The notes under the pieces: generated by a model
The model's database searches: none
Told to the model about the DNA's origin: nothing
The model's input: the letters and a program-made list of their open reading frames with translations, nothing else
Made by a program: the position numbers and the translations under genes
In this document: one piece after another, positions 37,624-40,393 of the stretch
Numbering within the stretch: position 1 is the first letter of the stretch
Layout: the number at the start of each line of letters is the position of its first letter
Assembly: GCA_903834195.1 (NCBI GenBank)
Contig: CAILIB010000020.1
Coordinates: forward strand, 14,084-78,083
Reading direction: 5' to 3'
Length of the DNA stretch: 64,000 nt
DNA from: an uncultured Candidatus Berkelbacteria bacterium
GTDB taxonomy: Bacteria; Patescibacteriota; UBA1384; CAILIB01

Positions 37624-37692
37624 TTTGATACCCTCTTTGAGAACTGACTCACGACATGAGTAAGGGTTGAGGTTCCCAAAGAGGGTATCAAA
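37624..37692 (-). ncRNA. Long-stem structured element in rplJ leader (copy 1)
   Basis: 21-bp inverted repeat (one G-U on - strand) enclosing CTCAACCCTTACTCATGTCGTGAGTCA; homologous to 40323-40393. Confidence 0.75.
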
Positions 37693-37718
37693 TTTCCGAG
37701 TTAATAAGGTAATAAAAT

Positions 37719-37820
37719 AAAAAATTCGCTCAGAGACAGAGCGAAACATCACACAACTCGCGTTGATATGCGCCTCGGCAGGACTTCTTCCGTTAGGATG
37801 CCTACTGTCTCTGGTACAAA
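37719..37820 (-). promoter_or_regulatory. L10 leader (attenuator)
   Basis: CCAGAGACAGTAGG...CCTGCCGAGG L10-leader motif; terminator TTCGCTC/GAGCGAA-T6 whose CTGTCTCTG can pair with upstream CAGAGACAG; promoter TTGACC-17-TAAAGT at 37824-37852. Confidence 0.85.
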
Positions 37821-37907
37821 GATACTTTACCTGATTTCCAGGTTGAGGTCAATACTTGGGTAAAAAAATATGTTTGACCGGGGGTGCCGGCCAAACATGA
37901 AGCGGAT

Positions 37908-38438
37908 TCACTTCTTTTCCTTGAGTAATTGCTCGATGAACCACTCAAGTATATAACCCAGGTTCTCCGGATCCGCTTTCTGAACTGCAGCTATGGCAGC
38001 AAGCGGGAAGTACTCTTGAATAAGAGGATACCCCTCGTCACCGACGTGGTCGTCGACTTCAAAAACTGGGTATCCGACACTATTCAACCCTACTTTGAAT
38101 CTAGGATCGAAGAGTGTGAGCTCGGGCGGACCCTTAAGCCCTTGATTGAAGTTGAAGTGGTAGCAACGTACCGATTCGTCGCACAGAAAGATCAGGAACA
38201 AGCCATCCACCGATGATCCGTAAATCTTGTTGAAAAAAACACACGGATTCCTGGAGTAATTTTCTGGCCCCCATTGCGCAGAAGAATAATTTCCTACTAG
38301 AGCACTTTGTGCAACTTCCGGGGTAACTTCAACACACGACTGTTTCGGAAGCTTGCGAAGCAACTTCTCAATCGGAATGACAGCATTAACCGGCTCTTTC
38401 TTCCCTGACTGACGAACCTGCAGATATAAAGACATCAC
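37908..38438 (-). CDS. Hypothetical protein
   Basis: ORF with SD (GGGAGAAGGA) and own terminator at 37862-37899; no recognisable motif. Confidence 0.6.
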   Translation of the reverse strand: MMSLYLQVRQSGKKEPVNAVIPIEKLLRKLPKQSCVEVTPEVAQSALVGNYSSAQWGPENYSRNPCVFFNKIYGSSVDGLFLIFLCDESVRCYHFNFNQGLKGPPELTLFDPRFKVGLNSVGYPVFEVDDHVGDEGYPLIQEYFPLAAIAAVQKADPENLGYILEWFIEQLLKEKK

Positions 38439-38611
38439 ATTTCCTTCTCCCTTAACCCAGGAAGTGGGCTCCGTTAGGAGATTATCGAATATACCACAAG
38501 TAGTTCATTATTTCAATTAGAAACGCCTTATCAGATTGACAAATCTAGTAAATAATGGTTAAATAACACATTCGAAACGAACTTTCGACAACACGTGCTT
38601 TTAGGAGAAAA

Positions 38612-39217
38612 ATGAAAAAAATCCTCACATTACCCGCCGGAAACCCAGTGGAATTTCGTTGGACAAACAGGAAGGGTGTAAAAAAACGATTCCTGATTCC
38701 TGGTTCGCTTTGGGTGACCATCGTGACTATGTTACTTATGGCACTCACCTTCGCTTATGCCAAAACCCTAACCTGGCAAATCGGAGTAGGTGTAACCCTT
38801 ATGCTTCTGATCCATGAATTAGGGCACTTATACGCTGCTAAAAAGTGTGGATACTTGGCCAGTGTGCCGATATTCATACCATACCTCGGCGCAGCTGTAA
38901 TTTGTCCTCAGATTCTAAGAAGTCGCAATGAGGCGTACGTCGGCTATTACGGACCACTATTTGCAGCGATTGCGAGTATTAATCTGCTCCTGTTCACTAT
39001 CCTGTGGCCAGGACATCACCATGACGTCGCACTCGTAAATCAGGCGAGTTTGTCAGTTAACGTTTTCAACATGATCCCACTCAGGTTTCTCGATGGTGGA
39101 CGCATACTTGCGAAAAATGCTTCGCCGCGTCGACACCATGCAGATTGGGTCAGGTGCTATGTAATCCTGACGGTGGGTCAGATTGCATTGTGGGTTATTC
39201 AAGCATTCTACTACTAA
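38612..39217 (+). CDS. Site-2 protease (peptidase M50)
   Basis: HELGH, GP, FNMIP..FLDGG; promoter TTGACA-17-TTAAAT and AGGAG SD. Confidence 0.88.
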   Translation: MKKILTLPAGNPVEFRWTNRKGVKKRFLIPGSLWVTIVTMLLMALTFAYAKTLTWQIGVGVTLMLLIHELGHLYAAKKCGYLASVPIFIPYLGAAVICPQILRSRNEAYVGYYGPLFAAIASINLLLFTILWPGHHHDVALVNQASLSVNVFNMIPLRFLDGGRILAKNASPRRHHADWVRCYVILTVGQIALWVIQAFYY

Positions 39218-39280
39218 CCTAACTAAAGCACGTGGTATTGAGTCGGTCCAAATGTATTGGGCCGGCTTTTTTTGTATACC

Positions 39281-39307
39281 AAAAACCCCGCCTTGCAGCG
39301 GGGTTTT
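39281..39307 (-). terminator. Terminator after rplA
   Basis: AAAACCCCGC/GCGGGGTTTT inverted repeat. Confidence 0.8.
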
Positions 39308-39320
39308 CTCTCGATTCAGT

Positions 39321-40274
39321 TTAGAGCTGAACTTTTACACCAGGTCCCATTGTAGGAGCGAGTGAAACTGAAACTACCTTACCACCTTGGAGAATTGACT
39401 CCATAGTGCGGAAATTTTCAGCAATTTGCTCAGTCTTGAACGAAATTCGGCCAAGTGACATGTGAAGAACACCAGTTTTATCGGTACGATATTCAACACG
39501 TCCACCACTGATTTCTTTTGTAACTTTCTCGATATCTTCTGTAACTGTACCAGCTTTAGGAGATGGCATCAGACCTTTAGGACCAAGAAGCTTAGCAAAC
39601 TTAGCAAGCTTTGGCATTTGAGCAGGAGTTGCAATCAGAACGTCAAAGTCGAGCTTACCTGCAGCAATTGCTTCAATAGTTGCATCATCAGCAACAGCAA
39701 CTTTCTTAGTTTTACCTGTTCCGTGTGGAAGAACGATTGTTCCGCGAACACCTTCAACCTTAAGCTTTGCATGAAGTTCGATGGTACCATCAAACTTTGT
39801 AGTTGATGTCTTCTTTACAAGCTCAATCGCTTCTTCAAGTGGATACTGCTTGTTGCGTTCAACTAGAGCAACAACCTGACGATACTTCTTGCCGCGAAGA
39901 CGGAGTGGGTCAAGTTTCTTGGTTGAAACAGGCTCAGCAGTCTTACCTTCAGATACGCGCTTTGCAGCTGCTTTCTTAGCCTTTTCTGAAGTACTCTCAC
40001 GATTCTTGTGCTTTTTTTCACCTTCTTCTGCAACGATTTCAGCATCAAGCTCAGCAACATCTGCCTCAAGAGCTTCTTCTTCGTCAGTTACCAAAACCTG
40101 CTCGTCAGCTTCTAGCGCTGTAGCATTGTCGGTGTTCATAGCAGACATTTCTGCAGGAATAACATCGTCGGTATCGGTAATTTCGTCCATTACCTCATCC
40201 ATTGATGTGTTCTCTTCTAAATTCTGGTGAAGTGCGTCATGCAGTTCACTTGGGTCAAGTACTTCTTTGTCCAT
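39321..40274 (-). CDS. rplA: 50S ribosomal protein L1 with long acidic N-terminal extension
   Basis: [35 protein letters not shown] 40274 preceded by GGAGG. Confidence 0.93.
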
Positions 40275-40284
40275 TGGACCTCCG

Positions 40285-40316
40285 GTGGTAGTAACGCTCA
40301 GATTCTGAGCTCCCAC
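40285..40316 (-). promoter_or_regulatory. L1-binding leader (23S rRNA mimic)
   Basis: GTGGGAG-CTCAGA..CTGAG-CGTTACT-ACCAC matches the GUGGGAG...ACCAC L1 autoregulatory motif. Confidence 0.75.
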
Positions 40317-40322
40317 AATTAC

Positions 40323-40393
40323 GTTGATATACCTCTTCAAAACGCTGCCCGACGACGCGGTAAGAGTTGAGGGTTTTGAAGAGGTATATCAAC
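40323..40393 (-). ncRNA. Long-stem structured element in rplA leader (copy 2)
   Basis: Perfect 21-bp inverted repeat enclosing CCTCAACTCTTACCGCGTCGTCGGGCAGC; homologous to 37624-37692. Confidence 0.75.

What the first reader, a model, noticed from the sequence alone, without database searches (positions are those of the whole stretch)
37624..40393. Shared novel structured element in the leaders of rplJ and rplA
Seen: 37624-37692 and 40323-40393 are homologous ~70-nt elements. In mRNA sense both read TTGATA..CCTCTT..AAC-(C)CTCAACYCTTAC-hairpin with GTCGT loop-CA..GTT..AAGAGG..TATCAA. Each has a 21-bp closing stem whose arms differ between copies yet stay paired, and the inner stem covaries (CTC/GAG vs CCG/CGG). 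One ends 9 nt before the rplJ ATG, downstream of the L10 attenuator. The other lies directly upstream of the L1-binding leader. Established: the L10 and L1 leaders already explain autoregulation, so this is an extra layer. Inference: a common cis-regulator of r-protein genes, an RNase III processing/stability cassette, or a small palindromic mobile element favouring these leaders.
Basis: partly seen in the sequence, partly recalled or inferred. Interest (0 to 1): 0.85.

Follow-up and report, generated by a model that had tools for sequence, protein, structure and literature searches.

The report
Site-hopping capped hairpin repeat family
The two hairpins in front of ribosomal protein genes are real copies of a small folded repeat that, in related tiny-genome bacteria, sits at other places (behind tRNA genes, at gene ends, in either direction) and is missing from these two places, so it is likely a come-and-go repeat element rather than a shared switch for ribosomal protein genes.

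Summary
Both elements are real and homologous: 21-bp stems (folding z -7.6) carrying a shared ~28-nt cap. A model built without the rplJ copy finds it at E 2e-7. A third copy lies in the rpsA leader, but reversed. Six more copies occur in 3 of 10 genomes of the same family: two behind tRNAs (reversed), two at gene ends, one before rpmH, one before an alanine-racemase-like gene. None outside the family (139 class genomes). No site is shared: 0 of 8 rplJ, 0 of 9 rplA and 0 of 9 rpsA leaders of relatives carry it. Instead, unrelated caps on similar near-perfect stems occupy five orthologous spacers. So it fails the test for a ribosomal leader and behaves as a low-copy dispersed repeat with a conserved tip and co-varying arms, biased towards translation genes. 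It has no Rfam match and no target-site duplication, and no mobilising enzyme was found. The arms are probably kept perfect by template switching. RNase III cleavage or mRNA stabilisation is a plausible, untested side effect. Earlier AI notes of this scan describe the same architecture, with other caps, in other CPR genomes. Verdict: new variant of REP/MITE-like repeats.

The parts
37624..37692 (-). Capped hairpin repeat, rplJ-leader copy (69 nt): 5' arm 37692-37672, cap 37671-37645 (unpaired UCAACCCUUAC tract, then a small hairpin with GUC loop), 3' arm 37644-37624
40323..40393 (-). Capped hairpin repeat, rplA-leader copy (71 nt): 5' arm 40393-40373, cap 40372-40344, 3' arm 40343-40323
37709..37832 (-). 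L10 leader (Rfam RF00557, 46 bits against gathering 44), including a terminator-like hairpin at 37745-37725; host element, not part of the repeat
37824..37852 (-). Promoter-like site for rplJL (TTGACC-17-TAAAGT); consensus match only
37090..37614 (-). rplJ (L10), ATG at 37614
36680..37060 (-). rplL (L7/L12)
40285..40316 (-). Motif conserved in the family's rplA leaders, likely the L1-binding site (identity recalled; no Rfam call); host element
39321..40274 (-). rplA (L1) with a long acidic N-terminal extension
40454..40483 (-). Promoter-like site for rplA (TTGACA-18-TG-TAGAGT) inside the 3' end of pth; it would place the repeat in the rplA 5' UTR
40410..40988 (-). pth (peptidyl-tRNA hydrolase), upstream of the rplA copy

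Best explanation
The two elements are copies of a low-copy dispersed hairpin repeat, a conserved ~28-nt cap on a near-perfect 14-34-bp stem, found at different spacers and in both orientations in related genomes; it is likely spread by an unidentified enzyme acting in trans, its arms are likely kept perfect by replication template switching, and it is predicted to be tolerated in leaders because it folds on itself. Shown: homology, 9 copies in 4 genomes, no shared site, both orientations, other cap families at the same orthologous spacers, no target-site duplication. Inferred: (1) the unit that moves is the cap plus the inner 6-8 bp of the arms, which are shared between loci and genera in two subtypes; (2) the outer arms are then rewritten in concert by template switching; (3) strongly transcribed spacers (r-protein leaders, tRNA trailers) are preferred targets or the best-tolerated sites; (4) once transcribed, the 20-bp helix may be cut by RNase III or may stabilise the mRNA, as a by-product and not as a dedicated ribosomal-protein switch.
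For: Third copy reversed in the rpsA leader. Models R2 and R3 find 6 further copies in 3 of 10 family genomes: behind tRNA-Gly and tRNA-Leu, both reversed relative to the tRNA; at two gene ends; before rpmH; before an alanine-racemase-like gene (label recalled; E 0.18 but full architecture). Orthologous sites lack it: rplJ 0 of 8, rplA 0 of 9, rpsA 0 of 9 relatives; rpmH has it in 1 of 9 relatives and not in G004, the congener of the carrier G009. Unrelated caps hold the same spacers: class C at rplJ in 2 of 8 relatives (nhmmer E 5e-12 and 5e-5); class A at rplA in 1 of 9; at tRNA-Leu(TAA) class B in G004, class A in G000 and G008, plain terminator in G003 and G005, nothing in G010; after dnaX and its neighbour class B in G009 and three class A caps in G000; at rpmH class B in G009 and a decayed class A in G000. 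This genome holds at least 17 class A and 8 class C elements on similar stems; class A also occurs in both orientations relative to transcription. Outer stems: 7 of 12 pairs show double-sided changes in 5 copies, 0 of 500 shuffles as high. Wobble pairs are rare: 5 G-U of 195 pairs in class B and 6 of 376 in class A, against 20 of 279 in this genome's tRNA acceptor stems. In G005 a hairpin behind tRNA-Leu has a 3' arm that is an inverted copy of the tRNA's own 3' end (36-40-bp stems), as template switching would give (PMC5941160, passages). Removing the element in silico leaves start-region accessibility almost unchanged: rplJ 0.65 vs 0.64, rplA 0.55 vs 0.53.
Against: No mobilising enzyme was found: no Y1 transposase in G000 (76% complete) or in G003, G004, G005, G010; IS110 in 1 of 11 genomes with no cap near it; reverse transcriptase in 2 of 5 genomes, absent from three of the four carriers; no stem-capped hit in four viral scans. 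No close strains were available, so no clean filled/empty site pair was seen; gain and loss are inferred across genera and from one congeneric pair. Copy number is only 1-3 per genome. The bias to translation loci is real (4 of 7 independent copies at r-protein leaders or tRNAs, P about 0.005-0.007 with my rough spacer counts) and could reflect selection for an RNA function. In class B the outer-stem wobbles follow the transcribed strand (5 G-U vs 1 A-C), as RNA selection would give; deamination of the non-template strand predicts the same (own knowledge), and class A shows no such bias (6 vs 7). The low wobble count is partly built in, because class A was found by seeking perfect stems and the walk penalises G-U.
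Confidence: 0.58

Rival explanations
1. Host-selected RNA processing or stability module: the lineage keeps long helices in the transcripts of highly expressed genes as RNase III sites or protective hairpins; the cap families are interchangeable protein-binding tips, and sites turn over because any such helix does the job.
For: 6 of 9 copies lie at r-protein leaders or tRNA trailers; several cap families recur at the same five spacers; RNase III is encoded; the 5S rRNA is closed by a similar 22-bp perfect stem; class B wobbles follow the transcribed strand; Neisseria Correia elements can be cleaved or protected by RNase III (PMC2649163, start of abstract in search listing).
Against: Most orthologous spacers hold no element at all (rplJ 6 of 8, rplA 8 of 9, rpsA 9 of 9 relatives), so the genes work without it. 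A cap read as RNA should not be reversible, yet 3 of 9 copies are reversed.
Confidence: 0.24
2. No true mobility: the caps are a TRIT-like family of terminator or pause hairpins that are homogenised and exchanged by gene conversion between pre-existing hairpins.
For: At tRNA 3' ends the stems start at the CCA with an A-tract like the plain terminators found at the same sites in relatives; no target-site duplication; TRIT shows that a lineage-restricted, sequence-conserved terminator motif exists (PMC3152330, passages).
Against: The two window copies lie in 5' leaders where relatives have no hairpin to convert and are not followed by a U-tract in the mRNA sense; inner arms are shared between unrelated loci.
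Confidence: 0.12
3. Dedicated common cis-regulator of ribosomal protein genes: one protein or small RNA binds the unpaired cap and co-regulates rplJ, rplA, rpsA and rpmH.
For: 3 of 3 copies in this genome and 4 of 9 overall are in r-protein leaders; the cap is conserved across three genera.
Against: Reversed at rpsA; absent from 0 of 8, 0 of 9 and 0 of 9 orthologous leaders, and from 50 of 50 more distant rplJ loci searched with R2 and 80 of 80 searched by descriptor; 5 of 9 copies elsewhere. Candidate r-leaders are required to stay consistently upstream of r-protein genes (PMC7247131, passages).
Confidence: 0.06

Closest known systems
REP / REPIN elements mobilised by RAYT (PMC3116915, passages; PMC3184786, passages)
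   Same: Small, extragenic, hairpin-forming dispersed repeats with compensatory changes; co-transcribed; proposed non-autonomous mobility; REPs can alter mRNA stability.
   Different: In REPINs the two REP arms are conserved and the spacer varies; here the tip is conserved and the arms vary. 1-3 copies per genome instead of about a hundred. No RAYT/Y1 transposase found in three of the four carrier genomes searched or partly searched (G000, G004; G008 and G009 not searched for it).
Bacterial MITEs (Correia/CREE, ERIC, RUP; PMC3184786 passages, PMC2649163 listing)
   Same: Inverted arms around a core, no transposase, co-transcribed with genes, possible RNase III substrate.
   Different: No target-site duplication (0-1 nt in 9 of 9); terminal repeats not conserved between copies; only 55-90 bp; no cognate IS found.
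TRIT terminator motif of Mycobacterium (PMC3152330, passages)
   Same: Lineage-restricted hairpin family with sequence conservation, often bidirectional, some copies at 3' ends.
   Different: TRIT has 147 copies tightly placed at stop codons; this family has few copies, several in 5' leaders, and conserves an unpaired tip and not the helix.
Ribosomal leaders, e.g. L10 leader RF00557 (PMC4538822 abstract; PMC7247131 passages)
   Same: Structured element in r-protein 5' leaders with covarying stems.
   Different: Not conserved at orthologous leaders, reversible, shared with tRNA trailers and other genes; it sits beside the true L10 and L1 leaders and does not replace them.
IS200/IS605 (IS608) ends (PMC3201880, passages)
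   Same: The commonest cap holds both TCAA and TTAC, the IS608 right and left cleavage tetranucleotides, next to a small hairpin.
   Different: Geometry is wrong (TCAA lies 5' of the hairpin, TTAC abuts it; IS608 has TTAC 19 nt 5' of one hairpin and TCAA 10 nt 3' of the other) and both 4-mers vary among the 9 copies; probably coincidence.

Membership tests
Ribosomal leader (r-leader) | Consistently upstream of r-protein genes | tested here: not met
   4 of 9 copies; orthologous leaders 0 of 8 (rplJ), 0 of 9 (rplA), 0 of 9 (rpsA), 1 of 9 (rpmH)
Ribosomal leader (r-leader) | Sense orientation in the regulated mRNA | tested here: not met
   rpsA copy and both tRNA copies reversed
Ribosomal leader (r-leader) | Covariation supporting a conserved RNA structure | tested here: inconclusive
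   Outer stem covaries (7 of 12 pairs, 0 of 500 shuffles), but template switching gives the same; inner hairpin weak; R-scape not available
Ribosomal leader (r-leader) | Binds an r-protein and mimics its rRNA site | not testable with these tools
   No binding assay; no 16S rRNA 3' end found in the assembly by motif
Known Rfam family | Score above a family's gathering threshold | tested here: not met
   Window scan gives only L10_leader; the 9 loci give only sub-threshold generic miRNA-type hairpin matches over the elements
REP / REPIN | Extragenic, palindromic, dispersed, hairpin-forming | tested here: met
   9 of 9 copies intergenic and stem-closed
REP / REPIN | Conserved arms (REP units) with variable spacer | tested here: not met
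   Inverse pattern: cap conserved, arms variable
REP / REPIN | RAYT (Y1 transposase) present and flanked by the repeat | tested here: not met
   0 in G000 (76% complete), G003, G004, G005, G010; 1 in G001 with an internal stop and no cap beside it; G008 and G009 not searched
MITE | Target-site duplication | tested here: not met
   Abutting direct repeat 0-1 nt in 9 of 9 copies (one copy touches a contig end)
MITE | Conserved terminal inverted repeats matching a cognate IS | tested here: not met
   Only the inner 6-8 bp of the arms are shared, in two subtypes; no cognate IS found
IS200/IS605 end | TTAC 19 nt 5' of one hairpin, TCAA 10 nt 3' of another | tested here: not met
   Order and spacing differ; both 4-mers vary
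Intrinsic terminator / TRIT | At gene 3' ends, stem followed by a U-tract | tested here: not met
   Window copies are in 5' leaders and are followed by CAUAAC and GUAAUU; 4 of 9 family copies do lie at 3' ends of genes or tRNAs
RNase III substrate | About two turns of regular helix (own knowledge) and RNase III in the cell | tested here: met
   21-bp stems; RNase III gene at C22:6620-7012, E 2e-38
RNase III substrate | Cleavage in vivo or in vitro | not testable with these tools
   No RNA run listed

The most novel reading that the evidence does not exclude
These ultra-small bacteria run an undescribed plug-and-swap system: several unrelated conserved caps are moved by a host or phage enzyme onto self-perfecting stems at the same few strongly transcribed spacers (r-protein leaders, tRNA trailers, origin region), and the helix sets RNase III processing or half-life of translation-machinery transcripts. 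That would be a domesticated mobile layer of control over ribosome gene expression, with a transposition chemistry that leaves no duplication and recognises a hairpin tip, not terminal repeats.
Probability: 0.17. Interest if true: 0.8.

Novelty: new variant of a known kind. Interest (0 to 1): 0.42.

Why it matters
It warns that covarying paralogous hairpins in CPR leaders can mimic new ribosomal leaders or riboswitches, because arm homogenisation in DNA gives the same signal as RNA selection. It also documents a repeat design (conserved tip, freely varying but perfect arms, different caps swapping at one orthologous spacer) for which no mobilising enzyme is known. Finding that enzyme, or showing RNase III processing at these sites, would explain how minimal genomes gain and lose structure in their most highly expressed transcripts.

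Tried and rejected
Exact core motif in 60 relatives: 11 matches outside G000, none in a closed stem. Core-plus-stem pattern over the GTDB collection: 43 matches, all with 7 or fewer closing pairs; the pattern is strict and G000's own record was not returned. Model R1 over 141 genomes found nothing real, but the same tool missed the rplJ copy in G000 itself, so that negative is weak. R3 over 150 class genomes: one hit outside the family (E 0.09), in coding sequence without a stem; stricter filters applied. Subtype pattern over 401 phylum genomes: 2 hits against 3 control hits, neither in a stem. Five weak R3 hits at E 1-9 were inspected and dropped; one in this window (about 26540-26586) looks coding. 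Six weak R2 hits at E 0.3-2 were dropped. A stem at C19:28280-28350 was considered as a fourth copy and dropped: R2 and R3 do not score it. Class C model does not hit class B at E<5, so the caps are treated as unrelated. Four viral scans gave 0, 0, 1 and 12 hits, none judged a stem-capped element. No RNA holder listed. DNA contigs showed no joint skipping either element. Resemblance of the cap to 16S rRNA words and to HUH nick sites (recalled) was not supported: the words vary among copies. Literature searches for a description of such elements in CPR listed none; supplements of PMC7247131 and of motif-discovery papers were not read and could hold an uncatalogued motif.
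Full report
Observation. The window lies on contig C20 of a 1.13-Mb, 76%-complete genome whose relatives are 0.4-2 Mb; a CPR/Patescibacteria identity is inferred from this and from earlier scan notes, not from a taxonomic call. On the - strand the order is pth, element, likely L1 site, rplA, two unrelated genes, L10 leader, element, rplJ, rplL. 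Both elements are as described: 21-pair stems, z about -7.6, caps alike beyond chance (2 of 5000 shuffles). A model trained without the rplJ copy recovers it at E 1.9e-7 with a 16-bit strand difference. Promoter-like sites place both in 5' leaders. Logan contigs of the probable source run agree letter for letter.

A third copy. BLAST and a stem survey found a third copy on C24:7407-7468. It lies in the leader of rpsA (S1 domains), but as the reverse complement of the mRNA. A fuzzy descriptor finds exactly these 3 stem-closed copies among 101 loose core matches in the assembly.

It is one of several such families. The stem survey listed 126 hairpins with 13 or more Watson-Crick pairs. Many carry conserved caps on unrelated perfect arms. 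Class A has at least 17 copies (14 of the 17 rows, 3 rows dropped as lacking the architecture, plus 3); 8 lie directly behind tRNA or tRNA-like 3' ends, others after dnaA, before recA and at gene ends. Class C has 8 copies at E 3e-11 or better. Class A is in one orientation behind all 8 tRNA-type ends and in the opposite one at 3 of 8 other sites. I call the element of this finding class B.

Relatives. rplJ was found in 8 of 10 family genomes, rplA in 10 (9 with upstream DNA), rpsA in 9. None of these leaders has class B. At rplJ, G004 and G009 have a class C element in the same spacer, and a more distant metagenome locus (L067) has class C reversed just before the ATG. At rplA, G005 has class A between the pth stop and the L1 motif. 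Model R2 (3 copies) found two true copies in G004 (E 5.5e-5, 9.6e-4), behind tRNA-Gly and tRNA-Leu(TAA), both reversed relative to the tRNA. Model R3 (5 copies) added three in G009 and one in G008: after a ferredoxin-like gene, in the rpmH leader, before an alanine-racemase-like gene (these three gene labels are recalled from the translations, rpmH confirmed) and after a membrane-protein gene. R3 found nothing real in 139 class genomes outside the family. So 9 copies are known in 4 of 11 family genomes: 4 in r-protein leaders, 2 behind tRNAs, 3 elsewhere; 3 of 9 are reversed. No site is shared between genomes. At tRNA-Leu(TAA) six genomes show four states: class B, class A (twice), plain terminator (twice), nothing. 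After dnaX and its neighbour G009 has class B and G000 has three class A caps; before the racemase-like gene G000 has nothing. At rpmH G009 has class B, its congener G004 has none, G000 has a decayed class A and G007 another long hairpin.

Anatomy. Across 9 copies the cap is an unpaired tract close to UC(A/U)(A/C)NYCUU(A/G)C, then a 3-6-bp hairpin with an invariant GUC in its loop, then 1-5 nt. The inner arm ends are shared across loci in two subtypes, AAAAC and AAAAGTA; outer arms are mostly locus-specific. Outer stems covary strongly and are nearly free of wobble: class B 184 Watson-Crick, 5 G-U, 1 A-C and 5 other of 195 pairs; class A 360, 6, 7 and 3 of 376; tRNA acceptor stems 20 G-U of 279, with the caveat that perfect stems were partly selected for. 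In G005, hairpins behind tRNAs extend to 33-40 bp by carrying an inverted copy of the tRNA's own 3' end, which points to copying in DNA. Template switching is reported to correct imperfect inverted repeats in bacteria and, in yeast, to be enriched in highly transcribed regions (PMC5941160, passages). There is no target-site duplication. Deleting either element in silico barely changes predicted accessibility of the start region.

Bias to translation genes. With about 465 spacers of 60 nt or more (my ORF caller) and roughly 17-25 r-protein leader spacers (counted partly by eye), 2 of the 7 copies found after the first two being in r-protein leaders has P 0.02-0.04; 4 of 7 at r-protein leaders or tRNAs has P 0.005-0.007. 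The bias is shared with classes A and C, so it is a property of this kind of element and not of the class B cap. It is the main result against a purely neutral reading, together with the class B wobbles following the transcribed strand (5 vs 1).

Mechanism. Most likely (0.58) a non-autonomous repeat whose cap is the recognition signal for an unidentified trans-acting enzyme, whose arms are homogenised by template switching, and which is tolerated in leaders because it is self-closed. The mobiliser was sought and not found: Y1 transposase 0 of 1 and 1 of 5, IS110 1 of 11, reverse transcriptase 2 of 5, no cap near any of them, no stem-capped viral hit. Rivals are a host-selected RNase III or stability module (0.24; RNase III present), a TRIT-like terminator family exchanged by conversion (0.12) and a dedicated r-protein regulator (0.06). 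No RNA run was listed, so expression and cleavage are untested.

Comparison with what is known. No Rfam family matches. It works like REP/REPIN and MITE-type repeats but fails membership: conserved tip and variable arms instead of conserved arms, no RAYT found, no duplication (PMC3116915 and PMC3184786, passages). It fails the r-leader criterion of staying upstream of r-protein genes (PMC7247131, passages); the L10 leader already explains rplJL attenuation in B. subtilis (PMC4538822, abstract). TRIT (PMC3152330, passages) and IS608 ends (PMC3201880, passages) were compared and do not fit. Five literature searches listed no description of such elements in CPR; paywalled papers and unread supplements may hold one. 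Earlier AI notes of this scan report the same architecture with other caps in other CPR genomes and no look-alike of this cap; they are leads, not support.

Verdict. Observation confirmed; regulator reading not supported; mobile-repeat reading best. New variant of a known kind, interest 0.42.

Noticed in passing
window 39890-40274 (-): rplA (L1) carries an acidic N-terminal extension of about 130 residues ending in a conserved basic motif; extensions of varying length are present in all 9 relatives shown. rplK lies about 14.5 kb away and rplA has its own promoter-like site inside pth.
   Followed up: partly
L037, L038, L040, L041, L042, L045, about 100 nt upstream of rpsA; G000 C24:7370-7540: The family's rpsA leaders share a two-hairpin structure with conserved GCAUA and UGCGGA words; Rfam called nothing there in G000. 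A candidate S1 leader.
   Followed up: no
G000 C37:19733, C26:11525, C29:8054, C24:4391 and at least 13 more sites; G005 and G008: Class A cap (UCC-GCA / GA-GGA internal loop with a variable tip hairpin) on 15-27-bp perfect stems, in fixed orientation behind tRNAs; three tandem copies at C23:24629-24830.
   Followed up: partly
window 54511-54606 and 54623-54742: Two further stem-closed elements directly downstream of rplK: a 50-nt cap on a 23-bp stem and a class C element.
   Followed up: partly
L215:186, L219 (G005 C1:98225), L221 (G005 C1:124403): Terminator-like hairpins behind tRNAs whose 3' arm is an inverted copy of the tRNA's own 3' end, giving 33-40-bp stems.
   Followed up: partly
L214, L220, L223 (G005 C1:612874, 111714, 175440): Another cap family (45-53 nt, ending in CTCAA) on 23-27-bp stems, three copies in 400 kb of G005.
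   Followed up: no
G000 C3:70625-70770: 5S rRNA (recognised by eye) enclosed by a 22-bp perfect stem and followed by two tandem class C elements.
   Followed up: no
window 47117-47265: An 85-nt region closed by a 32-bp imperfect stem downstream of cysS-like gene, unlike classes A-C.
   Followed up: no
G000 C33:17730-18029: A CsrA-like small protein (recognised by eye from its translation); not tested by profile search.
   Followed up: no
window 37908-39217: An unknown 176-aa gene and an M50 peptidase gene separate rplA from rplJ in this genome.
   Followed up: no
L264 (G004 C32): The only IS110 transposase in the family lies on a short GC-rich contig that may be a binning contaminant.
   Followed up: partly
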